A stretch of 64,000 nt of DNA from an uncultured Rikenellaceae bacterium (GTDB taxonomy: Bacteria; Bacteroidota; Bacteroidia; Bacteroidales; VadinHA17). The position numbers and the translations under genes are program-made. The notes below the pieces were generated by a model. It did not search any database and was not told the origin of the DNA. It saw only the letters and a program-made list of their open reading frames with translations. Location of the stretch: positions 5,485 to 69,484 of the forward strand of contig CAYPHL010000001.1 in assembly GCA_964410385.1 (NCBI GenBank), read 5' to 3'. Below, in pieces: positions 1 through 18,922 of this stretch (its first letter is position 1; each line of letters starts with the position of its first letter).

Positions 1-3000
1 TCCGAGATACCTTAATTTTCCTTTATTGAGGACTGCTACCTGGTTGCATGAACTTGAAATATCCTCGATTATATGTGTCGAAAAGATTATAACACGTTCA
101 CGGCTTAATTCGACCAGAAGATTCCTGAACCTGATCCTCTCACGCGGATCGAGCCCTGCCGTAGGCTCATCAACTACAAGTATCCTTGGCAGATGAAGGA
201 GGATCTGGGCAATACCCATTCTCTGTTTCATCCCGCCGGAATAGGAACTGATCTTTTCATGTCTTCGTTCCTCCATATGGACAGCTTTCAGAACGTATGT
301 TACACGTTCTTCCCTTGTGGCGGCATCTATAATATTTTTAAGCATCGCCAGATAATGAAGGTACTCATGCGCTGTCATATTTTCATAACTTCCGAATTCC
401 TGAGGAAGATATCCGATCAGACCCTGAAGTTCCTCACGTTTCTTCTGGGTATCGAGGCCATTTATCCAGACCTTGCCATAGCTTTGCTCGAGTATTCCGC
501 AGATGATCCTCATGAGTGTCGTTTTCCCTGCTCCGTTCGGTCCGAGTAAGCCGAACATACCGTTACCGATATTCAGAGAAACACAACTGAGAGCCTTGAA
601 CGGTTTCTTCTTCTTACCTATCAGAGGAACTGCAGAAACTATCTTGTATATGGTTTTTCTCAGTCCTTTAAACCGGCCCTCCAGCCTGTATATATCTATG
701 TTCTCACCGGAGAGCATCACCCCGGTCTTATATATGAATAACCCGGTAAACCACAGAAATCCAAGTATCAGTACCACGGCCAGGTTATCCCATTTTATCT
801 GGAAGAAGACCAGGTTTAGCAAGGGGATGATCCAGAAGACAAGGAAATCGATCGGGGGGATCATTTTTTTCAGTAATCCTTTTTCCCCTCTGTTAGTCAT
901 ACTTATTAGCAGTTCCCTGAAACGGCTCCAGATAGCAGATAGAAAGAACCATGAAGCAATGCTGAACCAGAAGATCCAGAATCCTTTATTCAGATAAAAA
1001 TAGGTGAAGTAAATCATAAACCCGAAAAGGGGTAGTTGCCAGCTTATCCGTGTCAGATCCTGCCAGCTGGTAATCTTCTTTTCAAGCCCGAGCCTTTCCC
1101 TTATCCGTGCACCCGCTTTCCATTCACGTGCCCACCTGTTTTCCCTTTCGTAGATCTTTACAAGACTCTGAACACGGATGTTTATTTCTTCATCGGGAGG
1201 AATGACAGTTTCCCTGGCCTTTCTCAGGCTGTTCATTATGAACCAGGCTGATGCCGGGACGATTATTACCGAGAGAATGGTTGTGATAAGCTTCCAGACA
1301 AATTTGTCAATCCTTGTATAAATAAGGAATATTAATAAAGCAAATATACCCAGCTGGAGAATTTTATTCTTCCAGTCGAGTGACCTTAACCAATCGAGGG
1401 CATTTTCAAGGCCCGAATAGAATGTAGGTATGAATACAAGGGTAAGAAGGGTGCTGAGAGTAAGGCCTCCGATTACTGTTACTGCAAATGAAGCGCCGAT
1501 AACTGATACAAATTCAGCTTTCCCCATTGCCAGCGGGATCATGGCAATTACAGTTGTCGAAGCAGTGATCAGGATCGGTCTTATCCGGGCTACTCCTGCC
1601 ATCATAAGCGCTCTTGACCTCCGGTTTCCTCTTTTGCGGAGTATATTTGTATAGTCAATAAGGATGATGCCATTATTTACCACCACACCAAGCAGAATAA
1701 GAAAGCCCATCAGGGTATTTGCGTTCAGAAGCGAATTACCGGTGAGAATGAGTGCTATAAGTGAACCCAGGGCAGCAAGGGGAATGCTGAAAAGAAGGAC
1801 AAACGGCAGTGTGAGTGATTCAAACACGGCAGCAAGTATCATAAAGATCAGAAGAAACGCGATCCCGATGAGCTTATAGAATTCCCTGAACTGATCTTCC
1901 TCATGGACCACCTCAACAGCTATGCCGGAGGGAATGGCCAGGCCTGCAATAACCGATTCGATCTCTGAACGGGCTCCATCAAGGAGATCTTTCGATGAGC
2001 TTATTTCACTTTTGAAACTGTATGTTACAGTAACCCTCTTTTCCTGGTTTTCACGATGTATATTGCCCATCCCATAAGCGAAGATGATCCCTGCAAGTTC
2101 ATCCATCTCCATAATCGCACCAGCTGAATTGCTTACTTCAAGGCGTTTCAGGTCATCGATCGATTTATCAGTGTTTTTGTCTTCCAGTGTATCGGCAGAT
2201 GCATACTTGATAATTATGTCATACCTTTCATTTCCCTGTCTGAATACTGCCCCCGATGAATACTCCCTTCCGAAGGTTGCCAGGGCGGAGGAAAGGTTAA
2301 TCAGCGAAAAATTATTTCTCGCGATATAATCCATATCGAAATGAAGCTGAACCTCAGGTTTGTTATCCTGAACATTGACACTTATATTATCTATGGATTC
2401 CAGCTCGTCGACATTCGTCCTGATGTCGTCGGCAAGGTCTTTCATCTGACCGAAATCCTGTCCTTTTATTATTATGCTTTCCGATTCTCTTCCAATGCCA
2501 AGCATCCTCATGAATCCCGAACCCGGATTTACGGTTTCCACACCATCGCCGCTGCTTGTAAATCCTCCGCTGGTTGAAATATTATCCATGCTTATCGCGG
2601 CTGAGGAAATATTCTTTGTTTTTTCAAGGATTTCATTTTTTATCTCCGGAAGGCTCTTTTTACTTTCTTTATCCCAATCTTCCTTAAGACTTATTGTTAC
2701 AGTGGCATTATCCTCACCAATACGGCTGACAATATCCTCTTTTTCAGGGACAGAAGCCAGCCTCGACTCAATTTCAGCTACCACAGCATCTGTTTTTTCA
2801 AGAGTTGACCCTGTTGGCATATTTACGCTTAACCTGAAATCAGGCGTCTCTATTTCACTGGAACTGCTGATGCTAAGTGTGAGGCTGATTAGCAGCGCCG
2901 CAAAGAAAATGACCAGGGTACCGATAATTGTTGCAGCAGGTTTTTTCATGCTGGCCTTTAGTATGAGGAAGTAGGCCTGAATGAGCCGGTCGTGGATGGA

Positions 3001-4506
3001 CAGCTTTTTAAATATCTGTGCATTCCCGATGGATCTCATTGAAAGTAAATAGTTGGTTGCCATCGGGATGAACATCAAAGCCACGGCTAATGAAACAAAT
3101 AGTGTGGAAATAATTGACACTCCGATATTTTTCCCTATTATTCTTATAAGGTAACCTGATGTGAAAATGAAGGGCATGAAAACTATAACAGTCGTCAGGG
3201 TAGATGCAACAATAGCTCTTATAACCTCTGTTGTCCCCTGTTTTACAGAAGTTTCGGTATCTTTACCCGATCCTGCGAGCCTGTAAATATTTTCAAGGAC
3301 AACAACGGAATTGTCGACCAGCATTCCGACAGCCAGTGCTATCCCGACTAGGGTCAGGCTGTTGATTGAAATACCGGTGGCATAAAAGAAGTTAAAGGCT
3401 GTATAGACTGAGACAGGTATTGAAACAGCAATTATTGAAACAAGCCTGAAATTCCTGAGGAAGAACCATAATATAAGGATTGCCAGAAATCCTCCTGTAA
3501 TGGCAAGATTGATTATCTGGTTTATATTTTCTTCCATTGTTTCCGCCCCATTATACTGGACAACTATCTCAACACCCTGAGGAGTCATCTCCCTGTTTAT
3601 TTTATTTATTTCAGAGAGGGCACTATTTGATAGTTTTATAAGGTTAGCCTGGTTGTCATTTACAAGGTTTATTGTAACAGCATCCATTCCGTTAACCCTG
3701 CTGAAAGAAGTCTCTTCCCTGACGCCATAAAATATTTCGGCAATATCTCTCAGGAGTACCGGTCCTTCCTGTCTTACAATTATCCTGCCTATATCCCCGA
3801 CATCTGTATATTCGGATGTAATGTTCACAAAGAACTCGTTGCTCCCGTCTACAACTTTCCCTGCGAAAGTCTTTTCCTTCCCGTTATTATTCAACAGAGT
3901 TCTTACCTGACCCATTGTGATACCGTTTGCCTTGCAGGCACGTTCATCAAGCCTTACCTCAATTGAGTTTTCCTGACCGCCATATACCTGGACACCGGCA
4001 ATACCGTCGATGTTTTCAAGCTTCGGTTTTATTTCCCTGTCGGCAATGTTCCTGATCCTGTCAACACCTCCTTCACCCCTTATCTGAAGTGACATGAACT
4101 GATTTATCATCTGGTCGAGATCGATCCTTATCACACTGATCAGGAAATCTTCGGGGATTGAATTCTTTACCACGTCAATCTTCTCCTGGAGCTTGAGGCT
4201 GGCATACTTCAGATCGGCCTTCTGCGCATAATAAATTGTTATTACACCGAAATTTGATGTGATGTTTGTTTCGATCTTTTCAATATCGTCAAGAGTCCCG
4301 ATAGCCCCTTCAAGGGGGATTACCGCCTGGGTCTCTATATAAGCCGGGTCCATTTCAAGTGGAGTTCCTACTCTTACAATAAGTGTCGGCAGCTCGGGAT
4401 TAGGGATTAATTCGACAGGTAGTTTCTTATAAGAGACATAACCGAGCATTGTGAGCCCGGCGAACAGCATAATTATCAGGATCCTTCTTTTTAGAATAAA
4501 GTCCAT
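1..4506 (-). CDS. RND (AcrB/HAE1-type) efflux permease fused in frame to an extra 6-TM block and an ABC-transporter ATPase domain; C-terminus lies beyond the window (>=1502 codons)
   Basis: ATG at 4506..4504, 17 nt after the stop of the upstream RND gene. Hand translation of the minus strand (codon first bases at positions divisible by 3); triplets 1-1680 checked one by one with no stop, the rest read through once with none seen. Missing from the ORF track only because no stop lies in the window. The first ~1035 aa are RND-like (MDFILKRRILIIMLFAGLTMLGYVSYKKLPVELIPN..., ...VVNNGIILIDYTNILRKRGNRRSRALMMAGVARIRPILITASTTVIAMIPLAMG...). Hydrophobic helices follow at ~1390-710. Then Walker A GPNGAGKT (543..520), signature SGGMKQR (240..220), Walker B ILVVDEP (183..163) and H-loop STH (81..73). 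Confidence 0.8.
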   Translation of the reverse strand, partial: MDFILKRRILIIMLFAGLTMLGYVSYKKLPVELIPNPELPTLIVRVGTPLEMDPAYIETQAVIPLEGAIGTLDDIEKIETNITSNFGVITIYYAQKADLKYASLKLQEKIDVVKNSIPEDFLISVIRIDLDQMINQFMSLQIRGEGGVDRIRNIADREIKPKLENIDGIAGVQVYGGQENSIEVRLDERACKANGITMGQVRTLLNNNGKEKTFAGKVVDGSNEFFVNITSEYTDVGDIGRIIVRQEGPVLLRDIAEIFYGVREETSFSRVNGMDAVTINLVNDNQANLIKLSNSALSEINKINREMTPQGVEIVVQYNGAETMEENINQIINLAITGGFLAILILWFFLRNFRLVSIIAVSIPVSVYTAFNFFYATGISINSLTLVGIALAVGMLVDNSVVVLENIYRLAGSGKDTETSVKQGTTEVIRAIVASTLTTVIVFMPFIFTSGYLIRIIGKNIGVSIISTLFVSLAVALMFIPMATNYLLSMRSIGNAQIFKKLSIHDRLIQAYFLILKASMKKPAATIIGTLVIFFAALLISLTLSISSSSEIETPDFRLSVNMPTGSTLEKTDAVVAEIESRLASVPEKEDIVSRIGEDNATVTISLKEDWDKESKKSLPEIKNEILEKTKNISSAAISMDNISTSGGFTSSGDGVETVNPGSGFMRMLGIGRESESIIIKGQDFGQMKDLADDIRTNVDELESIDNISVNVQDNKPEVQLHFDMDYIARNNFSLINLSSALATFGREYSSGAVFRQGNERYDIIIKYASADTLEDKNTDKSIDDLKRLEVSNSAGAIMEMDELAGIIFAYGMGNIHRENQEKRVTVTYSFKSEISSSKDLLDGARSEIESVIAGLAIPSGIAVEVVHEEDQFREFYKLIGIAFLLIFMILAAVFESLTLPFVLLFSIPLAALGSLIALILTGNSLLNANTLMGFLILLGVVVNNGIILIDYTNILRKRGNRRSRALMMAGVARIRPILITASTTVIAMIPLAMGKAEFVSVIGASFAVTVIGGLTLSTLLTLVFIPTFYSGLENALDWLRSLDWKNKILQLGIFALLIFLIYTRIDKFVWKLITTILSVIIVPASAWFIMNSLRKARETVIPPDEEINIRVQSLVKIYERENRWAREWKAGARIRERLGLEKKITSWQDLTRISWQLPLFGFMIYFTYFYLNKGFWIFWFSIASWFFLSAIWSRFRELLISMTNRGEKGLLKKMIPPIDFLVFWIIPLLNLVFFQIKWDNLAVVLILGFLWFTGLFIYKTGVMLSGENIDIYRLEGRFKGLRKTIYKIVSAVPLIGKKKKPFKALSCVSLNIGNGMFGLLGPNGAGKTTLMRIICGILEQSYGKVWINGLDTQKKREELQGLIGYLPQEFGSYENMTAHEYLHYLAMLKNIIDAATREERVTYVLKAVHMEERRHEKISSYSGGMKQRMGIAQILLHLPRILVVDEPTAGLDPRERIRFRNLLVELSRERVIIFSTHIIEDISSSCNQVAVLNKGKLRYLG

Positions 4507-4523
4507 TTTCTGTCTTATAAGAA

Positions 4524-7500
4524 TTACCCGGGAATGGTCAGAGATTTACTTTTCCCCGTAATATAATTGCTGAAATTAGCGAAGATCCAGTATACACAAG
4601 GTATCACAACCATGGTAAGCAGTGTTGATGATACCAGTCCACCTATTACTGCAAGCGCCATGGGGGCTCTGAGAGAAGCGCTTTCACCAATGCCTATTGT
4701 CAGAGGCAGAAGTGCGAGGATCGTGGTAAGACTTGTCATTAGTATAGGACGAATCCTCTGTGATCCTCCGAGAACTACAGCTTCCCTAATATCCATTCCT
4801 TCCGCCCTCAGCTGGTTGATGCGGTCAATAAGTATAATAGCATTATTGACTGCAATCCCTCCAAGCATGATTATTCCGATATATGCCATCATGTTGAGTG
4901 ATTGGCCAAGAATTATAAAAGTGAGAACCGTTCCGACACCGGCAAGAGGGATCGTAAGCATTATTATGAAAGGTTGAATTAATGATTCAAACTGTGCGGC
5001 AAGTACCATGAATACCAGAACAAGTGAGAGCGTAAGGGCAAAGGTGAGGTTGGACATGGAATCGCGTCGTTTCAGTTCTTCTCCTGTATACTCCATTTTG
5101 TAATCCACCGGAAGTGCTATCTTCTTCAGAGAGGCATCGGAGTACTTTATTACCTTGTCAAAGGCCAGGGCGGGACTGACCATTGCGTAGATATAACAGG
5201 TTCTTGACTGATTCCTGCGGGTAATCTCCCGTGGACTGACAACAGTCTTTATTTCAGCCAGTTCGCTTAAAGGGACCTTTACATTGCCCGCAGTTATCAT
5301 CAGGTCGTGAAGTTGATTGATTGAAACATCTCCCAGTTTAATTGTAATGTCCTTAAGCTCTCCATCCTTTTCGAAATTTCCCGCTGATGATCCTTCAAGA
5401 TAGCTTTTTACCTGGTTAATAACACTTTCTACCGAAACATTGTATAAGCTTGTCTTAAAGCGGTCGACTGCAACTTCTACTTCCGGTGTCCCTTCATCGA
5501 TTGATGTTGATAAATTATATAAGCCGGGATTTTTCTCCAGGATCAGTCTGGCTTCATTGATTATTCTTTCAAGTTCTTCATAATCTTCACCGGAGATTTC
5601 AAGTGCAAAAGGCGATTCTGAGGTTCCCAGGACACTCTGAAGCGCTGTCTCATCTCTTGTGAATGACACTTCCAGTCCGGGGACTGATTTCAGGTATGTA
5701 TCAACCAGTGTGATTGCACTTTCTGTTTCCCGGGCATATTCTTCCTTTAAGATAACTTTCAGGGATGCACTGTTCTCACCCCTGACCGTCGTTGTCTGGT
5801 TTAGGGCGGAAGACTTGTCTTCCCCTGCCTGAGTGTAAATCAGTTCAATCTTATCTCCAAGAAGCCCTCTTATAATTCCTTCAGCAGCTGATGCAGTTGT
5901 ATAAGTTCTGTCAAGACTTGTTCCTTCAGGCAGAGAAAGGCCCACGGTGAACTGGGCCGACTCTGCCCTTGGCATGAATTCGCTTCCCAGCCGGGGGATC
6001 AGCAAAGCAGTTCCGGCCATCAGCAATACAGACAGTATGACTACCAGATAACGTTTTTCGATTATTCTCCTGAGAACATTTGTGTACCATGTGAACTTCA
6101 GAGGCGCACTGATCCTTCTTTCCCTGGTTTTTTTCGAAAAGAAAGTTGATACAAGCATCGGTATCACCAGCATAGCAACGAAAAGGGATGATATAAGTGC
6201 GAAAGCCACTGTCCACGCCTGGTCCCTGAACATTTCTCCTGATGCACCATGAAGGTAAACAATAGGCAGAAAGACAACTATTGTCGTAATAGTTGAGGCT
6301 GTAATCGCTCCCCCTACCTGCCCGGTCCCGGTTATAACAGCTTCTTTCAGGGGCATCCCGTCTTCATGGTTCCTGGTTATGTTCTCAAGAACAACAATGG
6401 CATTGTCGACAAGCATACCGGCTCCCAGAGCAAGACCTCCCAGCGTCATAATGTTAAGTGAAAGATCTCCGAAATACATCAGATTAAATGTAGCAATTAC
6501 CGAAACCGGTATTGCCACACTTATTACAAGTGTTGTTCCTATCCTGCGGAGGAAAATATAAAGCACCAGCACAGCAAGAAAGATCCCCAGGAGAAGGGTG
6601 TTCTTTACTTCTCCAATTGAGTTATTAATAAAAGTACCCTGATCGGCAACCTTAATGAATTCATAACCTGGTAATGCCCTTCCAAGAGCATCAATTGCCT
6701 CATCAAGGCTCTTAACGGCATCTACAGTATTGTATTTCGGTTCCTTGTAAACAGACAGACCGATACACCTTTCGCCGTTTATTGTTACAATGTTCTCGGC
6801 ATCCTTATTTGCAAATCCAACTTTCGCTATATCCCTTAAATAAACAGGTACACGGGTTGAGGCTGAGGTTGAGGTTGAGGCTGAGGCTGAGGTTGAGGCG
6901 GATTGTCTGAAGCCTACAATAATGTTTTCAAGATCCCTCAGGTCTTCAAGTACACTTACACCCTTGACAACGTACTTGGTCCCCATTTCAACTATGGAAC
7001 CGCCCGACACATTTCTGTTATAATTACTTATCTGTGCGGCAATACCGTCAGGGGTAAGCCCGAATGATTCCAGAAGGTAATCGCTCGTCTCAATAACTAC
7101 TTCACTTTCTTCTTTTCCTGTGATCCTCACGTCAGCTACTCCCTCTATCCTTATAATCTCATTACGGATATAATTTTCAGCAACTTTCCTCAGTTCATCC
7201 ATATCAGAAATCTGGTCGTTCTTTAATCCGACGATCATCACAGGGGATGCATTCGGATCATACTGTGAAATTGTAAAATCTTCGAGGTCTGAATTCTGGC
7301 TGAATGAGTTAAGTTCTTTCTGAAGATCGAGGAAAGCTTCGTCCATATCCTTGTTCCAGTTATATTCAACAGTTATTGTTGCGGAACCGGCCTTTGACAC
7401 TGAGGAGACCTGAATCACATCACTCTGCCTCATTGCAAGTGATTCTATCTGATCGACATAGTTTTTTTCTATTTCTTCAGGAGGTTTTTCACCGGATGAA

Positions 7501-7649
7501 AGCTCGATATATATTTTCGGATTATTCAGATCGGGAAAAAGATCTGTTCCCAGTTTACCAAATGAGATAAATCCGAGAAGAACGATCCCCAGGACCAGCA
7601 TTAGTACTGTAACAGGGTATTTTACGGCAAATCTTGCAATAGCATTCAT
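4524..7649 (-). CDS. RND efflux transporter permease (AcrB/HAE1 family), 1041 aa
   Basis: ORF-track protein has an RND layout and motifs (LALGAGMLVDNAIVVLENI, GIIMLGGIAVNNAIILIDRINQLR, QRIRPILMTSLTTILALLPL). Starts 5 nt after the adaptor gene. Confidence 0.95.
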   Translation of the reverse strand: MNAIARFAVKYPVTVLMLVLGIVLLGFISFGKLGTDLFPDLNNPKIYIELSSGEKPPEEIEKNYVDQIESLAMRQSDVIQVSSVSKAGSATITVEYNWNKDMDEAFLDLQKELNSFSQNSDLEDFTISQYDPNASPVMIVGLKNDQISDMDELRKVAENYIRNEIIRIEGVADVRITGKEESEVVIETSDYLLESFGLTPDGIAAQISNYNRNVSGGSIVEMGTKYVVKGVSVLEDLRDLENIIVGFRQSASTSASASTSTSASTRVPVYLRDIAKVGFANKDAENIVTINGERCIGLSVYKEPKYNTVDAVKSLDEAIDALGRALPGYEFIKVADQGTFINNSIGEVKNTLLLGIFLAVLVLYIFLRRIGTTLVISVAIPVSVIATFNLMYFGDLSLNIMTLGGLALGAGMLVDNAIVVLENITRNHEDGMPLKEAVITGTGQVGGAITASTITTIVVFLPIVYLHGASGEMFRDQAWTVAFALISSLFVAMLVIPMLVSTFFSKKTRERRISAPLKFTWYTNVLRRIIEKRYLVVILSVLLMAGTALLIPRLGSEFMPRAESAQFTVGLSLPEGTSLDRTYTTASAAEGIIRGLLGDKIELIYTQAGEDKSSALNQTTTVRGENSASLKVILKEEYARETESAITLVDTYLKSVPGLEVSFTRDETALQSVLGTSESPFALEISGEDYEELERIINEARLILEKNPGLYNLSTSIDEGTPEVEVAVDRFKTSLYNVSVESVINQVKSYLEGSSAGNFEKDGELKDITIKLGDVSINQLHDLMITAGNVKVPLSELAEIKTVVSPREITRRNQSRTCYIYAMVSPALAFDKVIKYSDASLKKIALPVDYKMEYTGEELKRRDSMSNLTFALTLSLVLVFMVLAAQFESLIQPFIIMLTIPLAGVGTVLTFIILGQSLNMMAYIGIIMLGGIAVNNAIILIDRINQLRAEGMDIREAVVLGGSQRIRPILMTSLTTILALLPLTIGIGESASLRAPMALAVIGGLVSSTLLTMVVIPCVYWIFANFSNYITGKSKSLTIPG
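6857..6898. repeat. In-frame hexanucleotide microsatellite (YTGAGG x7) inside the RND gene
   Basis: ttgagg ctgagg ttgagg ttgagg ctgagg ctgagg ttgagg. On the coding strand this encodes ASTSASASTSTSAST. Confidence 0.9.
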
Positions 7650-7654
7650 GGAGG

Positions 7655-8704
7655 CTAAATAATGATTTTAACCTTTGATCTGTTGCTCAGGGTTTCAAAG
7701 CCTCCGGTAACTACCCGTTCGTTCTTTTCCAGCCCTCTGATGATCTCCACATCAGTCAGGTTTTCAAGTCCTGTTTCAACTATCCTTTCTACAGCAATAC
7801 CACGGTCAATGACAAATACCGTTTTTCCTCTCTGTCTTGACAGGATTATGTTTTTCGGGATCACAATAACGGAATCCTTTCTCCGGGTAACAATATCTGC
7901 TTTGACAAACATCCCCGGGCGGAGCAGGAAACCGGCATTATCTATATTAATTGTTCCCTTGAAAGTACGTGTATCTGCATCTATTGCCGGAGATAGCTGT
8001 GTGATCGCACCTGCTATGGTATCTCCCTGAATTGTATAATTAGTAAGCCTGACCTCCTGTCCGGGTTTTATTACAGATATATATTTTTCGGGAAGCCTGA
8101 CATCCATATACATCGTTCTGTAATCCATAATTTTAGCTATAGTTACACCGGAAGCTATTTCGGTCCCCTGTGTATAGTAAGGCAGATCCACAATAACACC
8201 TTCGATGGGAGAGATCACCCTTGTTTTCTGGAGCTTGAGCTTTGAGTTAATAACTGTTGTTTTGGCATTCTCGTAATTGATACCTGCAGTTTTAAGTTCT
8301 TTCAGGGTCACACCTCCTTTTTCATAAAGGGATTCCTGTTTTCTGAGCTCGGTTTCCATAAGTTCCAGGTTCAGCTGATTTGTTTCCATCTGGACTGAGT
8401 TTACATACTCCTCATCCTCCAGCCTTGCAATAATGGCCCCGGTCCTGACCCTGTCGCCAAGCTGCCATAACCTGCCGGTCTGCGGATTCTTCTCAAGAAA
8501 ATATGCTGCGGGGATTTTCGATTTCAGCTCAATCTCCCCTTTCGGGAAAGATGTCCCTGTTGTATTGACATATTCTTCAATCGATCTCAGGCTCAGTTCC
8601 TGAACGCTGACGGGTATCTCGATATCGGCCGTAAGGTTCTGATCACGGTTCCTGCATGCAGTGAATGTTGTAATAATGATTAATAGGGTTATGATCTTTT
8701 TCAT
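7655..8704 (-). CDS. Efflux transporter periplasmic adaptor subunit (HlyD/AcrA MFP family), lipoprotein
   Basis: Lipoprotein signal MKKIITLLIIITTFTAC, a central coiled-coil hairpin (NQLNLELMETELRKQESLYEKGG...) and a beta-barrel C-terminal part. Sits directly upstream of the RND genes. Confidence 0.9.
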   Translation of the reverse strand: MKKIITLLIIITTFTACRNRDQNLTADIEIPVSVQELSLRSIEEYVNTTGTSFPKGEIELKSKIPAAYFLEKNPQTGRLWQLGDRVRTGAIIARLEDEEYVNSVQMETNQLNLELMETELRKQESLYEKGGVTLKELKTAGINYENAKTTVINSKLKLQKTRVISPIEGVIVDLPYYTQGTEIASGVTIAKIMDYRTMYMDVRLPEKYISVIKPGQEVRLTNYTIQGDTIAGAITQLSPAIDADTRTFKGTINIDNAGFLLRPGMFVKADIVTRRKDSVIVIPKNIILSRQRGKTVFVIDRGIAVERIVETGLENLTDVEIIRGLEKNERVVTGGFETLSNRSKVKIII

Positions 8705-8866: not shown

Positions 8867-10366
8867 TTACATTATTGATTTTTCCATACTTTTTACCGGA
8901 GTCACGGGTTCCTTTTTCTCGAAATCATACAGTGTCTGGATCTTCAGATTAAGCAGTTCAAGCTTATATGAGATAAGGGAATTTGTATAGGAAAGCTGTT
9001 TTTCGGAAAGCTGGTTCTGATATATATTAAGGTCCATCCCGGTCAGATCCCCGTTGCGGTATTTTTCAAGGTTCAGATCATATGTAAGCTGCGCATTTGT
9101 TACATTCTGCTGTGCTATTCCAATCTGGTTACGCAGGTTGATCAGGTTCCTGTAAACCTGCCTTACCCCAAGAATTATATCGTTCTGCTCCTCTTCGAAA
9201 GATACATTTGCCGATTCGATGGTCGCCTGCGATGCTTTGATCCTTGACTTCCTTTCTCCCCAGTCCCAGAGAGGTACTGAAAATGAAAGAGAAATACTTT
9301 CGTTATCGGTGGGGCTCTCATAAACATTCCCTATGTTTTCATTATCCCCGAAAAGTCCTATTGAAAGTCCAAGGTTTCCCTTGAATTCATTGAGAGCTTT
9401 TGTCTGAATAAGATCAAACTCTGCGGTTTCAATATTTATTTTGCTCTGCCTCAGTTCCATCCTGTTCGCGAGACCCTGATCAATCGCAAAAGCCACATCT
9501 ATCTGAACAGTATCGACATCGATATTGGGCAGAACCATAAAATCATCATAAAGGCTCATTCCAATTATTATCTTGAAGTCGTCCTTCGCATTTTCATATT
9601 CCACCTGGCTGTTCTCGTATTCCGATCTTGAGGAAGCAAGGTTGAGCTCGGCCTGGAACATTTCTTCACGGGCTGATATGCCGGCATCGACTTTGTTTTT
9701 GATAACTTCATGGCTCTGTTGCATATTCTGGTAAGCCTGCCGGGCTATCTCCATGCTCTGCTGTTTCTGATAAACGAAATAAAATGCCTGCGTCACACCT
9801 TTTTCGAGGGATAAAAGCTGAATTGCATAGTTAAGCTGTGAATTCTCAAGGGCCAGCTGTAACTCTTTAAGCTGAAGTTTTGTACGGTTATAGGTAAAGA
9901 GAGGCTGATCGAGATTCAGTGAAAGCCGGTTGCTGAATCCCTTTGTTGTTCTTTCGGCAAATTCACTATATGAATCAGTATAACCAAAGCGGTTGGTCAG
10001 TGAAACAACTGCATCGGTCAGAACTATAGGCTGGGCTACAGTGAACAGCCCGAAGCTTTCTGTGGTCCTTGTTGTATTCCATTTGGATATAAGATCATTG
10101 AATTCCCTGTTCTGGTTGTATCCGATCGGATTTATTGATAATGAGAACTGGGATTTCAGCGCAGCATTCTGGGCATTGAGATTCTCCTGGTTCCTGATGA
10201 GGTTGAGCTTTGTCCTTTTCATATTGGGACTATTGTTTTCTGCTATCTGCATAGCCTGCTGAAGGGTCATTCCTTCCTGGGGATATACATCTACTATGTT
10301 GAATATTAATATACAACATGACAAGAAAATCCTTATAGCCGGTTTGAAGTGCGTTTTCATTATCAA
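8867..10366 (-). CDS. TolC-family outer membrane efflux protein
   Basis: 499 aa with an N-terminal signal and two internally similar helical/coiled halves typical of OMF proteins (…LNLIRNQENLNAQNAALKSQF…, …VRQVYRNLINLRNQIGIAQQNV…). Operon context with adaptor and RND genes. Confidence 0.88.
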   Translation of the reverse strand: MIMKTHFKPAIRIFLSCCILIFNIVDVYPQEGMTLQQAMQIAENNSPNMKRTKLNLIRNQENLNAQNAALKSQFSLSINPIGYNQNREFNDLISKWNTTRTTESFGLFTVAQPIVLTDAVVSLTNRFGYTDSYSEFAERTTKGFSNRLSLNLDQPLFTYNRTKLQLKELQLALENSQLNYAIQLLSLEKGVTQAFYFVYQKQQSMEIARQAYQNMQQSHEVIKNKVDAGISAREEMFQAELNLASSRSEYENSQVEYENAKDDFKIIIGMSLYDDFMVLPNIDVDTVQIDVAFAIDQGLANRMELRQSKINIETAEFDLIQTKALNEFKGNLGLSIGLFGDNENIGNVYESPTDNESISLSFSVPLWDWGERKSRIKASQATIESANVSFEEEQNDIILGVRQVYRNLINLRNQIGIAQQNVTNAQLTYDLNLEKYRNGDLTGMDLNIYQNQLSEKQLSYTNSLISYKLELLNLKIQTLYDFEKKEPVTPVKSMEKSIM

Positions 10367-10571: not shown

Positions 10572-13500
10572 TCACTCCGCTTTCACCCACCTGACAGCAT
10601 CCCCGATAACTATCCTGCCCGTCGACTGGTTTGTAAGTTCAACCTTTGCACTGTCGTGTGAGAAATAATACCGTCCGAGATTATTCCATCCGGGTTCCGC
10701 ATTCTCAAAATCGACAGTTATTTCATCCTTTCCTTCATCGTGATAAACCAGGTAATGCATATCCTTATATGGTGAATCGCCTCTGCCTTCTCCTCCGGGA
10801 GGCGCCGGTGGTCCTCCGGCCGGACCCTGTCCACGCCCGGTACGTACAACGACTCTTTCACCGGTCTTACCTACAAAACAATAAACATCATAGTAACCCG
10901 GCTCATCGATCTTTACAGACCAGGTAACCTTCCTGTCACCTGTACCACTGCGGGTAAATACTGAAGACAATACATATCTCCCATAATATGCCGATTGGAT
11001 GGCTTTCTCCCATTTCTCGGGAGCCCAGTACATGTTTATCTCACTGTATTCGTTGCGGTCATTATTTTTTACCCCGAGCAGTTTTTTAAGCAGACCGGGG
11101 GTCTCAATATTGGTATTTTTAAATCCCGGATCCTCATTGTCGACTATTAATTCACCGGGCGATGTCAAAGCGGGTAGCGGGAGTTTTTCTTCACCTTCAA
11201 TTATGGTTGTACCTGATCGTATTTTCCTGATCTCGTTAACGGGAAGGGTGACCTCTCCTGGTATGTTCCTGGCAAACAAAGTATTGATTATCAACTCCCT
11301 TGGTTCAGCATCAAGTATCGTTCTTATTGTCTTTGCATTCCCGGGTTCCATCACGACAATAGATGAAATATCATCTGTTTCCATACCCCTTCCCTGGATG
11401 GTCCTCGAAATTGATGTTCCTCCGGGTACTGGTCTTACTATGTCCGTTATTACCTGCCCGCTCCCTCTGCCTGAACCTCCGGTACGGAATGCGAGATAGA
11501 ATATGCCTGTAACTGTTTCAGGATTCAGCGCTGTGAAAGTAACCAGATATCTTACCCTGTCGCCAACGACAATTTCTCCGGCTTCAATATCCCTGAAAAG
11601 AAATCCGGGTTGTTCTTTCCTGTTGAACCAGCTGTCGAGATAAGGGTATATGCCGAATCCGAATTTCTGTTTCAGATCCTCGTCGAATCGGTCTATATCG
11701 ATCCTCCGGAATCTATGCTCATCAATATACTTTCCGAACCATTCGTTAAACTCCCTGATCCCGGCTTTCGATCTCATTATATTGAAAAGATAATCTCCTT
11801 TCAGGGTGACAATAGCTCTGATGGTATCACTTCCCGGATTCGAAGCAAGTATCTCCCTGAAGCTTCCGTTCCTGAGGATCAGATTAGCCCTGTCCTGCTC
11901 GGACACTCCTCCCATTGACCGTCTTATCCCGGCTTCGGGATTAGTCACTTTCTGGAGGTGGGATTCGAAAACGGAATTAATCACCGGGTATTCCGAGGAA
12001 TAAAAATTATTTTTGAAAAAGTAAAAACTCGGCCCAAGACGATAGCGGACCGGTTCGTTTATTACAGTTCCGTTGTAAAACCTGAAATCCTCTCCGGTGA
12101 TAAATGTGTTTCTTATAAAATCATTAAAAATCCTGACCTGTAATTCTTTATCGGTTATGACCTGGTTATTCCTGGCCATATTCTTTTTCTGACGCGAAAA
12201 TCTCTTTCCAAAGCCGGCATTCCGAAGCGTTGACAATCTTTCCGGAAGAAGTACCATTGATGGCTGTACCTCTGCTCTTGTCTGGGTGCTCATCCTGGGA
12301 TACGAAAAGAACTGAACAGGTACTTCCAGAAAGCTCAGTGTTCTAAATGGATATTTAGTTGAGAAATTTGTTTCGAGATCTCTCATTAATCCCGATACAA
12401 GATGAGATAAAGTGTCTTTAAGTTCTGCAAGATCTTTTTTGTAGTAATCATTCCCGGGGAAATAGAATGTAAAGTATTTTACCGAGTCCACTGTAAGCGT
12501 ATCTGAACTATAATTGCCGATTGCAAGAGTTAGACCGGTGAGTGGTACTTCATTTTCGAAAATGACAGCTCCGTCTTCTTTTTTCATTGTACCCTGGGCG
12601 ACCGGGACAAGTCTGCTGTCGGTCCTTACCCTGAGAGTGAACCTTATAAAATCGGTCTTGATCCTTGCAGGATTTGAAGGGTAATAGTTAAGTCCCGGAA
12701 CAGGATACCAGTGTGTTTCCGGTGTCAGGAGAACATAATCATCCCGTAGAAAGGCCTGACGCTTATTTATATTCAGCATTTCCATCCGGTAAGGTGTAAC
12801 GTTATAATTCTCGTTATGATCCGGAAAACAGAAATTCTCGTCGATCGTACCCGAGTAAGTTATTGTTAAACTATCGGTACAGCCAGGCTGAAGAATGCTG
12901 TCACGGTCAACTTCTATTATATGATTTATCCTTTCAAAAACCAAAGCCTGTCCGTTTGATGTAACTGTACTTACTGCCAGACCCGGATTAAGGGAAAGCA
13001 CATAGCGGTCGATCCCTGCAGGGTTATCATTTGTAAATTTCAGTCTTGCAGTCGCTTCAATTGTCTCTCCTTTATGACGGCAATCTATTTGTGCGTCTGT
13101 GAGTGCCGCGAAGAGGATATCTTCATATCTCCTGCTTACCTCGATAACCCGGTTCTTTGAATCCTTATTCTTTTTCCAGGTCTTCATTACGTTGAATCCG
13201 CAGAATCCGGCGCCTGCAGTAAAAACAACAAGCAGTATCACCGAAAGGGCTGTATGTATCTTAGACTGAGGCAATCTTTTAAATAACAATACTGTAGCAA
13301 AAACCAGGGCAAGTCCGAGGCACAGGTAGAAGCCTCTCTGGCTCAGAATCAACCCCGGATCATCAAAACCTATGATACCCGATTTAAAAAGAGGCAAACC
13401 GAAAGCCATATAGTCGAAAATAAATCCTGCCCTGTACCATAGCCAGAACATATCGAGAGCCGCAATCCCCAGCAGGATCAGGAAAGTTATTGCCTGATTC

Positions 13501-14018
13501 CTGATGACAGACATCATCATAAATGCCAGACCGAGGCTGAAAATTATCGTTGGCAGGCAGATCAGAAGAAGATACCAGAGATATGACAGGATATCCACCT
13601 CCATTCTTTTTGAAATTATATTGATGATAAGGGCAATGGAGAGGATTACGAGATCAAGACTCAGAAAAAGCCTGAGTATACCTGTTGTCTTGCCGCTTAC
13701 ATATTCAAAGTTCGACATTGAGCGTGTGTACAGAACTTCATTTGTATCAAGCTTTTTATCACGCTTCAGGAAATCAGCGGCAAGGAAAATGACGATCAAT
13801 GCCTGGCCTATATTTAAAAGGTACAGGTTGACATGAGGTACGGATGAAGAGATTGATATCATTTCCCATCCTTCTTCACCAACCGGTGAAAAGAGACCTA
13901 TGTTCATGAAGGTAAAGATCGTCAGGGCCCCTATCGAGAACAACCTGAAGAACCAGCTTCTCCTGAGTATCCTGGCTTCGTATTTTGCTACGGTTCTTAT
14001 GTTATGAAGAAATGACAT
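10572..14018 (-). CDS. Large membrane protein: ABC-2-type permease-like N-terminal multi-TM region fused to a ~850-aa extracytoplasmic region (degenerate M1-aminopeptidase-like, golvesin/CBM-like C-terminal module)
   Basis: N-terminal ~280 aa has about 7 hydrophobic helices and begins 15 nt after the ABC ATPase gene stop. The middle has YPFRTLSFLEVPV resembling the M1-peptidase core, but no GAMEN or HEXXH. The C-terminus (GYYDVYCFV...WNNLGRYYFSHDSAKVELTNQSTGRIVIGDAVRWV) resembles golvesin C-terminal-like domains. The domain calls are inference. Confidence 0.6.
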   Translation of the reverse strand: MSFLHNIRTVAKYEARILRRSWFFRLFSIGALTIFTFMNIGLFSPVGEEGWEMISISSSVPHVNLYLLNIGQALIVIFLAADFLKRDKKLDTNEVLYTRSMSNFEYVSGKTTGILRLFLSLDLVILSIALIINIISKRMEVDILSYLWYLLLICLPTIIFSLGLAFMMMSVIRNQAITFLILLGIAALDMFWLWYRAGFIFDYMAFGLPLFKSGIIGFDDPGLILSQRGFYLCLGLALVFATVLLFKRLPQSKIHTALSVILLVVFTAGAGFCGFNVMKTWKKNKDSKNRVIEVSRRYEDILFAALTDAQIDCRHKGETIEATARLKFTNDNPAGIDRYVLSLNPGLAVSTVTSNGQALVFERINHIIEVDRDSILQPGCTDSLTITYSGTIDENFCFPDHNENYNVTPYRMEMLNINKRQAFLRDDYVLLTPETHWYPVPGLNYYPSNPARIKTDFIRFTLRVRTDSRLVPVAQGTMKKEDGAVIFENEVPLTGLTLAIGNYSSDTLTVDSVKYFTFYFPGNDYYKKDLAELKDTLSHLVSGLMRDLETNFSTKYPFRTLSFLEVPVQFFSYPRMSTQTRAEVQPSMVLLPERLSTLRNAGFGKRFSRQKKNMARNNQVITDKELQVRIFNDFIRNTFITGEDFRFYNGTVINEPVRYRLGPSFYFFKNNFYSSEYPVINSVFESHLQKVTNPEAGIRRSMGGVSEQDRANLILRNGSFREILASNPGSDTIRAIVTLKGDYLFNIMRSKAGIREFNEWFGKYIDEHRFRRIDIDRFDEDLKQKFGFGIYPYLDSWFNRKEQPGFLFRDIEAGEIVVGDRVRYLVTFTALNPETVTGIFYLAFRTGGSGRGSGQVITDIVRPVPGGTSISRTIQGRGMETDDISSIVVMEPGNAKTIRTILDAEPRELIINTLFARNIPGEVTLPVNEIRKIRSGTTIIEGEEKLPLPALTSPGELIVDNEDPGFKNTNIETPGLLKKLLGVKNNDRNEYSEINMYWAPEKWEKAIQSAYYGRYVLSSVFTRSGTGDRKVTWSVKIDEPGYYDVYCFVGKTGERVVVRTGRGQGPAGGPPAPPGGEGRGDSPYKDMHYLVYHDEGKDEITVDFENAEPGWNNLGRYYFSHDSAKVELTNQSTGRIVIGDAVRWVKAE

Positions 14019-14033
14019 GTCCTTATCCTGAAA

Positions 14034-14930
14034 TCATTCCGAAATGTCTGCATGAAGCTTATGTTCCATGTAATAAACATAAGCATGTTCAATGTTTGGT
14101 ATTATTGTTTCCGAGCCGTCAAATTCCGGGCGGTTATCCGAAACAACCTGAACCTCCCAGCCTGTTTCAACCGGGATCGTCGAGATCACGTTATAACGTT
14201 CCTTTACAGATTCGTATTCGGCAGGACTGAGATTAAGCCGGAACACATGTCCTTCGGCATTCCTGACTAGGTTTTCGGGAGAACCTGAAAACACAAGTTC
14301 ACCCCTGTTCAGCAGAGCCATACCCTGACATGTCGATGAAATATCCCCGACAATATGGGTTGAGAGGATAATTGTCACATCGTGCTGACTCAGCTGTGAC
14401 AGTATATTCCTGAACCTGATCCTTTCGTCGGGGTCAAGTCCGGTCGTCGGTTCGTCAACAATTATGAGCTTCGGATTTCCAATAAGCGCCTGTGCAATAC
14501 CCAGGCGCCGCTTCATCCCCCCCGACAGTTTGTTAGCCTGCCGGTCGCGTACCTCCAGCAATCCCACCTGGTTAAGAAGACGGTCAACCTCGCTTATCCT
14601 AAGCTTCCGGTTTTTTATTCCTGCAAGGGCACCTGCATAATCAAGAAATTCCCATGTCCTGAGTGAGGTGAAAAAACGGAAATCCTGGGGAAGATACCCG
14701 AGGATGCTCCGGAGCCACCTCCGGTGCTTCTGAATATCCTTTCCATCTATCAGAACAATTCCTGATGTGGGTTTCATCAAGGTGACCATGATCCTCATAA
14801 GGCTCGATTTACCTGCACCATTGGGCCCCAGAAGCCCGAACATACCCGTCCCGAACTCAAGATCGATATCCTTAAGGGCACGATTGCCGTTAGGATATAT
14901 TTTGCTGAGCCCTCTGATTTCAATTTTCAT
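14034..14930 (-). CDS. ABC transporter ATP-binding protein (ABC-2/DrrA-like subfamily)
   Basis: Walker A GPNGAGKS, Q-loop YLPQ, signature LSGGMKRR, Walker B LIIVDEPTTGLD, H-loop STH. First gene of the minus-strand efflux locus. Confidence 0.95.
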   Translation of the reverse strand: MKIEIRGLSKIYPNGNRALKDIDLEFGTGMFGLLGPNGAGKSSLMRIMVTLMKPTSGIVLIDGKDIQKHRRWLRSILGYLPQDFRFFTSLRTWEFLDYAGALAGIKNRKLRISEVDRLLNQVGLLEVRDRQANKLSGGMKRRLGIAQALIGNPKLIIVDEPTTGLDPDERIRFRNILSQLSQHDVTIILSTHIVGDISSTCQGMALLNRGELVFSGSPENLVRNAEGHVFRLNLSPAEYESVKERYNVISTIPVETGWEVQVVSDNRPEFDGSETIIPNIEHAYVYYMEHKLHADISE

Positions 14931-16349: not shown

Positions 16350-16364
16350 TTAAATTAATAAACA

Positions 16365-17408: not shown

Positions 17409-17523
17409 ATCCACGGTCGGATTTAAATTTTCTGATATTGTTCATGTTAATCCGGAATTAAATAGTTTGTTCGGGAATTTTTATTTTTTTTGTATCCGGT
17501 TTTAATTACAATTATTTTTTCTG

Positions 17524-18918: not shown

Positions 18919-18922
18919 TTCA

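What the first reader, a model, noticed from the sequence alone, without database searches (positions are those of the whole stretch)
1..4506. RND efflux pump fused in frame to a half-ABC transporter (6 TM plus ATPase domain)
The ORF track shows no minus-strand gene here, but the minus strand is open from ATG 4506 to position 1. I checked every triplet from 1 to 1680 and found no TTA, CTA or TCA in frame; the rest I read through with no stop. The first ~1035 aa are a complete AcrB-type RND permease, ending …GGLTLSTLLTLVFIPTFYSGLENALDWL near 1400. The protein then continues through about six extra hydrophobic helices, for example ILQLGIFALLIFLIY, LITTILSVIIVPASAWFIM, LPLFGFMIYFTYFYL, FWIFWFSIASWFFLSAIW, IDFLVFWIIPLLNLVFF and LAVVLILGFLWFTGLFIY. 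It ends in a full ABC nucleotide-binding domain with Walker A at 543..520, signature at 240..220, Walker B at 183..163 and H-loop at 81..73. An even number of added helices keeps the ATPase domain cytoplasmic. RND pumps are driven by proton-motive force and ABC pumps by ATP. I know of no described protein that joins the two in one polypeptide.
Basis: seen in the sequence. Interest (0 to 1): 0.88.

Follow-up and report, generated by a model that had tools for sequence, protein, structure and literature searches.

The report
RND pump fused to ABC ATPase
One conserved bacterial gene joins a complete proton-driven RND efflux pump subunit to a membrane-tethered, ATP-driven ABC motor whose own small permease is encoded next door; no paper I could search describes this pairing of two different energy sources in one efflux machine.

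Summary
The minus strand is open from ATG 4506 to base 1 (1502 codons; chance about 1e-41). It encodes a full AcrB-type RND permease (aa 1-1035), six extra helices and an ABC nucleotide-binding domain (NBD). The window edge cuts off the last ~85 aa.

It is not an artefact. In 63 of 66 related genomes the frame stays open for at least 1580 codons. The linker exists only in ~1570-aa fusion proteins, down to 25% identity, in at least six phyla. The NBD is the best-conserved part (94%), with all catalytic motifs invariant.

The reading as a "half-ABC transporter" needs correcting. The NBD's first β-strand lies between extra helices 2 and 3, so four helices are an insertion inside the NBD, not a classical membrane domain. 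The likely true permease is a separate 238-aa ABC-2-type protein. It lies immediately downstream in 72 of 72 loci, just beyond the window edge.

The conserved operon is OMP, MFP, RND1, RND2::NBD, ABC-2 permease. Best reading: a tripartite RND pump physically coupled to an ABC-2 exporter, probably for two-step efflux. Direct ATP powering of the RND cycle is not excluded. I found no prior description.

The parts
1..4506 (-). Fusion gene RND2::6TM::NBD: 1502 codons from ATG 4506, cut at its 3' end by the window edge (the full protein in L001 is 1584 aa)
1402..4506 (-). RND permease core (aa 1-1035), full-length ACR_tran. TM4 reads VD398-N399 and TM10 reads N944-N945 where AcrB-type pumps have DD and K; the R976 and T981 equivalents are retained
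1234..1362 (-). Extra helical hairpin 1 (TMa aa 1049-1063, TMb aa 1073-1091) directly after RND TM12
1150..1185 (-). Displaced beta1 strand and A-loop of the NBD (INIRVQSLVKIY, aa 1108-1119)
   Evidence: AlphaFold predicts a strand here. It matches the N-terminus of the stand-alone paralogous ATPase in the window. The splice test extends the GldA-family profile match from position 16 to position 2 and adds 7.6 bits, while the scrambled control adds nothing
1090..1137 (-). Amphipathic cytoplasmic helix (RWAREWKAGARIRERL) leading from beta1 back to the membrane
730..1041 (-). Four-helix membrane insertion inside the NBD (TMc aa 1156-1172, TMd 1176-1193, TMe 1219-1235, TMf 1242-1259): two hairpins with 3-6-residue periplasmic turns
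   Evidence: 66% mean identity and no indels among 64 orthologs
637..675 (-). Second amphipathic helix (RFKGLRKTIYKIV) returning to the NBD core
1..606 (-). NBD core of the ABC-2/DrrA/GldA class (aa 1301-1502, truncated by the window edge). Walker A nt 520-543 (K1328), Q-loop 397-411, signature 220-240, Walker B 166-183 (D1446, E1447), D-loop 148-159, H-loop 73-81 (H1478)
4524..7649 (-). RND1: unfused paralogous RND permease (1041 aa, 30% identical to RND2), 17 nt upstream of the fusion gene; always present
7655..8704 (-). Membrane fusion protein / periplasmic adaptor (349 aa)
8867..10366 (-). Outer membrane efflux protein (499 aa, OEP)
10572..14930 (-). Co-conserved upstream pair: stand-alone ABC-2-class ATPase (14034-14930, 298 aa, 41% identical to the fused NBD) and a 1148-aa membrane protein with a Golvesin_C end (10572-14018). 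Whether they belong to the same machine is uncertain

Best explanation
The gene encodes a real, ancient composite protein. A complete RND permease (RND2) continues at its C-terminus through one transmembrane hairpin into an ABC-2-class ATPase. That ATPase is itself pinned to the membrane by a four-helix insertion between its first and second beta-strands. It belongs to a conserved operon: outer-membrane channel, periplasmic adaptor, unfused RND1, RND2::NBD, and a 238-aa six-helix ABC-2 (type V) permease just beyond the window edge. Shown: the fusion, its conservation, the split NBD, the intact catalytic motifs, the conserved partner genes, and the ABC-2 nature of the small permease. Inferred: the fused NBD dimerises and powers the small permease, forming an ABC-2 exporter that is held against the RND pump. 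The ABC-2 part uses ATP to move an amphiphilic substrate out of the cytoplasm or inner leaflet. The proton-driven RND part then captures it from the outer leaflet or periplasm and expels it through the adaptor and outer-membrane channel. That would be a hard-wired version of the two-step cooperation known between separate inner-membrane pumps and RND pumps. A 2:1 RND2:RND1 heterotrimer, as in MdtB2C, would supply exactly the two NBDs an ABC transporter needs; this is speculation.
For: The fusion is real. The frame is open for 1502 codons. In 63 of 66 related loci where an upstream stop could be reached, the stop-to-stop frame is at least 1580 codons. 332 species-representative genomes encode a relative of the linker plus NBD. 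The linker alone finds 95 clusters at 50% identity, and every full-length member is 1550-1585 aa with the linker at about 1030-1290, down to 25% identity. Members come from Bacteroidota, KSB1, Latescibacterota, Krumholzibacteriota, Ignavibacteriota and Spirochaetota MAGs. Selection is evident: among 64 orthologs the NBD is 94% identical, the RND core 76% and the linker segments 66-80%, with no indels. Walker A Lys, Q-loop Gln, the signature, Walker B Asp-Glu and the H-loop His are invariant. The split NBD is supported. The partner permease lies directly downstream in 72 of 72 loci, and its start overlaps the fusion's stop codon in about half of them. It is also present in the Latescibacterota, KSB1 and L085 loci. 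Its AlphaFold model (pTM 0.75) has type V ABC membrane domains as its top 17 PDB matches: PmtD, NosY, KpsM, Wzm, ABCG, ABCA. The Latescibacterota ortholog passes Pfam's cut-off for ABC2_membrane_2 (32.8 against 27.2 bits), and hhalign links it to the family at 99.1%, E 1e-18. The NBD's best structural matches are ABC-2-class ATPases, including NosF, the partner of NosY. RND2 keeps the TM4 Asp and the TM11 Arg and Thr, exactly as the unfused RND1 does, so proton coupling is probably intact. RND1 and RND2 are an ancient co-inherited pair: orthologs are 33-55% identical, cross-comparisons 25-32%. The operon order is constant. Precedents: the MdtB2C1 heterotrimer (PMC7015380) and inner-membrane pumps that feed RND pumps via the periplasm (PMC4338810).
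Against: There is no experimental or expression evidence, and every example comes from a metagenome-assembled genome. The fold match of the small permease is consistent but statistically marginal (best E 4e-3, TM-score 0.5-0.6), and the Bacteroidales copies themselves have no significant Pfam hit. Nothing tested here shows that the NBD contacts that permease rather than the six extra helices or the RND domain. RND pumps are trimers and ABC transporters are dimers, and the 2:1 solution is conjecture. The role of the six extra helices is unexplained. The substrate is unknown. A second ABC-2 system co-conserved upstream suggests the machine may be larger or different from this picture.
Confidence: 0.5

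Rival explanations
1. ATP-powered or ATP-assisted RND pump. The NBD dimer's power stroke is passed through the six extra helices directly to the RND2 transmembrane domain. It replaces or boosts the proton-motive force, which could help in low-PMF anaerobes. The 238-aa protein is then only an accessory.
For: The NBD is tied to RND TM12 by a short hairpin and pinned to the membrane by three short tethers. The NBD is the most conserved part of the protein. Both RND paralogs have an atypical relay, with D408 and K940 equivalents both Asn. The source MAGs come largely from sediments, digesters and lake bottoms, judging by their record titles.
Against: The atypical relay is shared with the unfused RND1, so it is not an adaptation to the fusion. 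The essential TM4 Asp and TM11 Arg are kept. A dedicated ABC-2 permease is always encoded behind the NBD, which would be hard to explain if the NBD drove the RND domain. No precedent exists for an NBD coupling to an RND fold.
Confidence: 0.2
2. Tether or regulator only. The fusion merely co-localises or co-regulates two otherwise independent transporters. For example, it could fix stoichiometry or assembly, or make RND activity depend on the cell's ATP level, without any handover of substrate.
For: The operon genes are tightly packed or overlapping, which suggests fixed stoichiometry. One short contig (L086) may carry an unfused hairpin-NBD gene, which would imply the two parts can work as separate proteins.
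Against: The fusion and the indel-free linker have been kept across at least six phyla down to 25% identity. That argues for a tight mechanical or spatial requirement rather than loose co-localisation. The L086 evidence is 64 nt at the end of a 2.4-kb contig.
Confidence: 0.15
3. One reading: the six added helices are the transmembrane domain of a classical half-size ABC exporter (TMD-NBD) that homodimerises on its own.
For: There are six helices before most of the NBD, an even number, with the correct topology. Foldseek aligns 450-530 columns to ABCA-family TMD-NBD halves.
Against: The NBD beta1 strand lies between helices 2 and 3. No ABC membrane profile hits aa 1036-1300. The ABCA alignments have rmsd 19-25 A and TM-scores no better than NBD-only hits. 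Periplasmic loops are only 3-6 residues. A genuine ABC-2 permease gene follows.
Confidence: 0.07
4. Assembly artefact, sequencing error or recent pseudogene-like read-through joining two adjacent genes.
For: Three of 66 loci (L026, L042, L043) have a broken frame, and gene callers often split the gene, for example 702 + 769 aa in L081.
Against: 63 of 66 independent assemblies keep the long frame. The family spans at least six phyla. The linker has no indels and is 66-80% conserved. The three exceptions are all 'MFD' assemblies with very long contigs. RND2 pieces are still detectable in all three, and in L042 and L043 they lie at the expected place, as frameshift errors would produce.
Confidence: 0.01

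Closest known systems
MdtABC / MuxABC-type RND pumps with two paralogous permeases (MdtB2C1 heterotrimer)
   Same: One adaptor gene is followed by two adjacent, anciently duplicated RND permease genes. RND1 and RND2 score higher against the MdtB/MuxB and MdtC models than against AcrB, and MdtB is among the best PDB matches. Heterotrimer precedent: PMC7015380.
   Different: Here one paralog carries a ~550-aa C-terminal extension with six helices and an ABC ATPase. All curated MdtB/MdtC cut-offs are missed by a wide margin (about 250-360 bits against 1584-1774). Heterotrimer formation was not tested.
ABC-2 / type V exporters with a separate ATPase and 6-TM permease (NosDFY, PmtCD, Wzm-Wzt, KpsMT, DrrAB, GldA-type)
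   Same: The NBD class matches (best NCBIfam hits GldA and DrrA; best folds TM_1403, NosF and ABCA). It has a C-terminal extra domain. A ~238-aa six-helix permease has an N-terminal amphipathic helix and a conserved coupling-helix motif after TM2.
   Different: The ATPase is not a free cytoplasmic subunit. It is fused to an RND permease and interrupted between beta1 and beta2 by four transmembrane helices. I found no such insertion outside this family.
Functional two-step efflux networks (inner-membrane single-component pumps plus AcrAB-TolC)
   Same: Same logic: one transporter moves substrate across or out of the inner membrane, and an RND tripartite pump takes it across the outer membrane (PMC4338810; PMC4822809, listed).
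   Different: In known cases the two transporters are separate, unlinked proteins. Here they would be covalently joined and co-transcribed. Substrate handover is inferred, not shown.
ABC-driven tripartite pumps (MacAB-TolC, type VII; HlyB-type, type IV)
   Same: An ATPase, a periplasmic adaptor and an outer-membrane channel are encoded together.
   Different: There is no MacB/FtsX fold or type IV membrane domain. The ABC part is ABC-2/type V, and the 2021 Chem. Rev. survey links only type IV and type VII ABC transporters to tripartite assemblies (PMC8277102). An RND permease is present as well.

Membership tests
RND superfamily permease (Pfam ACR_tran, HAE1-like) | Full-length match to the ACR_tran profile above the curated cut-off | tested here: met
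   545 bits against a cut-off of 28; aa 2-1031 cover profile positions 3-1018 of 1021
RND superfamily permease (Pfam ACR_tran, HAE1-like) | Proton-relay residues of AcrB-type pumps (TM4 D407/D408, TM10 K940, TM11 R971/T978) | tested here: inconclusive
   D398, R976 and T981 are present, but the D408 equivalent is N399 and the K940 equivalent is N944. The unfused RND1 shows the same pattern, so it is a subfamily trait
RND superfamily permease (Pfam ACR_tran, HAE1-like) | Encoded with a periplasmic adaptor and an outer-membrane factor | tested here: met
   HlyD_D23 adaptor and OEP genes lie upstream in the window and in all loci with room
NCBIfam curated RND subfamilies (RND_permease_2, MdtB/MuxB, MdtC, AcrB) | Score at or above the curated whole-protein cut-off | tested here: not met
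   Best is RND_permease_2 at 439.6 bits against 1250; MdtB 249.6 against 1584; AcrB 143.8 against 2150
ABC ATPase (Pfam ABC_tran), ABC-2/DrrA/GldA class | Walker A, Q-loop, LSGGQ-type signature, Walker B with catalytic Glu, D-loop, H-loop | tested here: met
   All present at the stated coordinates and invariant in 45 homologs. ABC_tran scores 97.5 bits against a cut-off of 25
ABC ATPase (Pfam ABC_tran), ABC-2/DrrA/GldA class | Contiguous NBD fold (beta1 directly followed by beta2 and Walker A) | tested here: not met
   About 180 aa with four transmembrane helices separate beta1 (aa 1108-1119) from beta2 (about aa 1300)
GldA (TIGR03522 equivalog) | Score at or above the equivalog cut-off | tested here: not met
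   173 bits against 402.6. It is the best-scoring ABC model, but this protein is not GldA
Half-size ABC exporter (fused TMD-NBD) | A contiguous six-helix ABC transmembrane domain with coupling helices next to an intact NBD | tested here: not met
   The helices are split 2 + 4 by NBD beta1. No ABC_membrane or ABC2_membrane hit in aa 1036-1300. Foldseek fits that include a TMD are no better than NBD-only fits
ABC-2 (type V) transporter complex | A cognate ~230-280-aa six-helix ABC-2 permease encoded next to the ATPase | tested here: met
   Present in 72 of 72 loci, often overlapping the stop codon. The fold matches type V membrane domains. The Latescibacterota ortholog passes the ABC2_membrane_2 cut-off and is homologous at hhalign 99.1%. 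The gene lies outside the window
ABC-2 (type V) transporter complex | Physical NBD2-TMD2 assembly and ATP-dependent transport | not testable with these tools
   Needs a multimer prediction, a structure or biochemistry
MdtABC-like heteromeric RND pump | Two adjacent paralogous RND genes behind one adaptor gene, inherited together | tested here: met
MdtABC-like heteromeric RND pump | Active heterotrimer of defined stoichiometry | not testable with these tools
   Only synteny and, in L083 and L084, overlapping RND1/RND2 genes
MacB-type (type VII) tripartite ABC pump | Four-helix FtsX/MacB membrane domain with a periplasmic core domain | tested here: not met
   No FtsX or MacB_PCD profile hit in any gene of the operon

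The most novel reading that the evidence does not exclude
A dual-energised efflux nanomachine. Two RND2::NBD chains and one RND1 form a heterotrimer whose two NBDs dimerise on two copies of the small ABC-2 permease. ATP hydrolysis and proton flux would then be mechanically coupled within one complex, either through direct substrate handover from the ABC-2 pathway into the RND entry or through ATP-gated RND cycling. This would be the first natural transporter using primary and secondary energisation in one polypeptide.
Probability: 0.25. Interest if true: 0.92.

Novelty: new variant of a known kind. Interest (0 to 1): 0.8.

Why it matters
RND pumps (proton-driven) and ABC transporters (ATP-driven) are treated as separate classes of efflux machinery. 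The main survey of tripartite pumps I could read lists RND, MFS, type IV ABC and type VII ABC engines, and its held text has no RND-ABC hybrid and does not link type V to tripartite assemblies. A conserved covalent RND-ABC-2 hybrid spread over several phyla would matter in three ways:
- It would be natural evidence that the two engine types cooperate physically. That would make the long-discussed two-step model of efflux (inner membrane first, then periplasm to outside) directly testable in one defined complex.
- It shows a new way to build an NBD, with a membrane anchor inserted between β1 and β2.
- It raises a concrete symmetry question (trimer against dimer) that structural work could answer.

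It also shows that annotation pipelines hide the architecture, naming the protein either "RND permease" or "ABC ATPase" and often splitting the gene.

Tried and rejected
1. Artefact or frameshift at the junction. Rejected: the frame is continuous in 63 of 66 loci and the family spans several phyla.
2. [quoted passage not shown] Rejected as stated: the DN (TM4) and NN (TM10) pattern is identical in the unfused RND1.
3. Classical half-transporter. Rejected.
4. An ABC-2 permease gene inside the window downstream of the NBD. Impossible to see, because the window ends inside the gene; it was found in related loci instead.
5. Direct Pfam or PDB sequence identification of the 238-aa protein from Bacteroidales. 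Nothing significant. It was resolved only through the fold and a distant ortholog.
6. Homology between the 238-aa permease and the membrane part of the 1148-aa upstream protein. Not significant.
7. PDB and NCBIfam searches for the 1148-aa protein. Nothing.
8. Stand-alone versions of the linker-NBD. None convincing. P0129 is a chimeric junk sequence. P0149/L086 is a 2.4-kb contig with an in-frame stop 14 codons upstream, and remains unresolved.
9. The puzzling absence of proteins longer than 831 aa. In the two cases I checked (L081, L082) this is explained by fragmented gene calls; full-length 1550-1585-aa members appear.
10. Eight literature searches for any RND-ABC fusion. No relevant paper (and the in-text search).

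Full report
**1. Observation**

Translating the minus strand from 4506 to 1 gives 1502 codons with no stop. The other two frames of that strand contain 89 and 134 stops. At this base composition the chance of such an open frame is about 9e-42. The ORF lister omits the gene only because it runs off the window edge.

Pfam places ACR_tran at aa 2-1031 (E 3e-163) and ABC_tran at aa 1311-1450 (E 1e-27) in this one frame.

The gene is cut by the window edge. In L001 (97-99% identical) it is 1584 aa, so about 82 residues are missing.

**2. Real or artefact**

A scan of one genome per species found 332 stretches that encode a relative of the linker plus NBD, and I fetched the best 80. In 66 of them an upstream in-frame stop could be reached. 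In 63 of those the stop-to-stop frame through the junction is at least 1580 codons.

The three exceptions (L026, L042, L043) are all 'MFD' assemblies with very long contigs. RND2 pieces are still detectable in all three, and in L042 and L043 they lie at the expected place. I infer frameshift errors.

An exhaustive search of 1.8 billion representatives with the 265-aa linker alone found only 95 clusters. Every full-length member is 1550-1585 aa with the linker at about 1030-1290, down to 25% identity.

Source names place members in Bacteroidales, Rikenellaceae, Cyclobacteriaceae, KSB1, Latescibacterota, Krumholzibacteriota, Melioribacteraceae and Spirochaetales, all as MAGs. One IMG record is already auto-named "AcrB/ABC-type multidrug transport system ATPase subunit".

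Conservation among 64 full-length orthologs, with no indel anywhere in the linker:

| Region | Mean identity to the window protein |
|---|---|
| NBD core | 94% |
| RND core | 76% |
| Linker segments | 66-80% |

All catalytic NBD residues are invariant in 45 homologs. The fusion is therefore ancient, selected and very probably catalytically active.

**3. Anatomy of the extension**

Hydropathy and an AlphaFold model of a homolog that starts in TM12 (P0001, pLDDT 80) give this order:
- RND TM12.
- A 15-aa cytoplasmic loop.
- Hairpin 1, made of two helices.
- A β-strand, INIRVQSLVKIY.
- An amphipathic helix.
- Two more hairpins, making four helices.
- A second amphipathic helix.
- The NBD core, followed in full-length relatives by a ~85-aa β-rich C-terminal domain.

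Periplasmic turns are 3-6 residues, and the K/R-rich loops are all cytoplasmic.

The strand is the NBD's own β1 with its A-loop tyrosine. Two results show this:
- The stand-alone ABC ATPase elsewhere in the window begins `MKIEIRGLSKIYPNGNRALKDIDLEFGTGMFGLLGPNGAGK`. The fusion reads `EINIRVQSLVKIYEREN`, then about 180 aa, then `FKALSCVSLNIGNGMFGLLGPNGAGK`.
- Splicing β1 onto the core extends the GldA-family profile match from position 16 to position 2 and raises the score from 175.7 to 183.3 bits. A scrambled control gives 175.9.

So four of the six "extra" helices are an insertion inside the NBD. The six helices are not a classical ABC membrane domain. No membrane-domain profile matches them, and Foldseek fits to ABCA TMD-NBD halves are no better than NBD-only fits.

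**4. The missing partner**

The NBD is of the ABC-2 class. Its best NCBIfam matches are GldA and DrrA, both far below their cut-offs. Its best folds are TM_1403, NosF and ABCA. Such ATPases normally work with a separate six-helix permease.

A 238-aa hydrophobic "hypothetical protein" follows the fusion gene in 72 of 72 loci with room. In about half of them its start overlaps the stop codon, most often by 4 nt.

The Bacteroidales copies have no significant Pfam or PDB sequence hit. Three other lines identify the protein:
- Its AlphaFold model (pTM 0.75) has an N-terminal amphipathic helix, six long helices and a short helix after TM2 that carries the family's most conserved motif.
- Its top 17 PDB fold matches are all type V ABC membrane domains (PmtD, NosY, KpsM, Wzm, ABCG, ABCA). 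TM-scores are 0.41-0.60, although the best E-value is only 4e-3.
- In a Latescibacterota locus the equivalent 239-aa protein passes Pfam's cut-off for ABC2_membrane_2 (32.8 against 27.2 bits). It aligns to the family over 219 columns at hhalign 99.1%, E 1e-18.

I conclude that this is the NBD's cognate permease. Its identity as an ABC-2 permease is shown. Its contact with the NBD is inferred.

**5. Operon**

The order OMP, MFP, RND1, RND2::NBD, permease is constant in all Bacteroidales loci with enough sequence. The core MFP, RND1, fusion, permease recurs in Latescibacterota, KSB1 and a third distant lineage, with overlapping genes.

RND1 orthologs are 41-55% identical across these lineages and RND2 orthologs 33-49%. 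RND1 against RND2 is only 25-32%. The pair is therefore an old duplication inherited together, as in MdtB/MdtC (PMC7015380).

Both paralogs share D-N in TM4 and N-N in TM10. The idea that only the fused copy lost its proton relay is rejected.

An ABC-2-class ATPase and a ~1100-aa Golvesin_C membrane protein lie just upstream in most lineages. Their relation to the pump is open.

**6. Mechanism**

- **Shown:** the architecture, its conservation, the intact ATPase motifs, the retained RND Asp and Arg, and the partner genes.
- **Inferred (about 0.5):** an ABC-2 exporter (two NBDs and two permeases) is held against an RND tripartite pump. ATP-driven extraction from the cytoplasm or inner leaflet would feed proton-driven expulsion across the outer membrane. 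This would be a hard-wired form of the known cooperation between inner-membrane pumps and RND pumps (PMC4338810).
- **Speculation:** a 2:1 RND2:RND1 trimer would provide exactly two NBDs.
- **Rivals:** direct ATP drive or gating of the RND cycle (0.2), tethering or regulation only (0.15), a classical half-transporter (0.07), and artefact (0.01).

**7. Novelty**

Eight full-text searches and a targeted reading of the main tripartite-pump review found no description of an RND-ABC fusion. That review links only type IV and type VII ABC transporters to tripartite assemblies. The library lacks most subscription-journal papers and TCDB itself, so absence is not proof.

The components are known kinds. 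Their covalent union, the NBD split by a membrane insertion, and an ABC-2 module inside an RND operon are new variants. If energy coupling between the two engines were shown, it would be categorically new.

Noticed in passing
window 10572-14930 (minus strand): A stand-alone ABC-2-class ATPase (298 aa, 41% identical to the fused NBD) and a 1148-aa membrane protein ending in a Golvesin_C domain sit directly upstream of the pump operon. In relatives the large protein has ABC2_membrane_2 or faint Peptidase_M1 hits. The Golvesin_C protein recurs upstream in the Bacteroidales loci with room and in the L083 and L085 lineages; the ATPase was seen only in the window and in L083. They may be a second ABC-2 system belonging to the same machine. 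The large protein has no PDB or NCBIfam match.
   Followed up: partly
window 15096-19699 (plus strand): An HD-domain protein followed by the lipid A genes lpxD, lpxC/fabZ fusion and lpxA lies divergently next to the transporter cluster. I did not check whether this adjacency is conserved or hints at a lipid substrate.
   Followed up: no
L086 1-1645 (GCA_028748505.1, 2.4-kb contig): A 526-aa hairpin-NBD gene (P0149) has an in-frame stop 14 codons upstream of its start, and none of the three frames of the 64 nt before it looks RND-like. It is followed by the usual 232-aa permease. This is either a genuinely unfused variant or a chimeric contig end.
   Followed up: partly
L001 10505-10823: In the closest relative, a ~320-nt G/C-rich, repeat-like intergenic insert separates the fusion gene from the permease. 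In most other loci the two genes overlap or lie within 50 nt. It may be a small inserted element.
   Followed up: no
protein hits; L081 7900-12310; L082 7417-12496: Gene callers and annotation pipelines often fragment or mislabel this gene (702 + 769 aa in L081; an 831-aa call in L082). The names given are only 'efflux RND transporter permease subunit' or 'ABC-type multidrug transport system ATPase subunit', so the architecture is largely hidden in public databases.
   Followed up: partly
window 3310-3321 and 1672-1683 (RND2), and the equivalent sites in RND1 4524-7649: Both RND paralogs have Asp-Asn in TM4 and Asn-Asn in TM10, where AcrB-type pumps have Asp-Asp and Lys. The proton-relay network of this RND subfamily must therefore differ from the textbook one.
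   Followed up: partly
window 4507-4523; L083 9001-9004; L084 5170: RND1 and RND2 are separated by only 17 nt here, and they overlap by 4 nt (L083) or 1 nt (L084) in distant lineages. This suggests translational coupling of the two RND paralogs as well.
   Followed up: no
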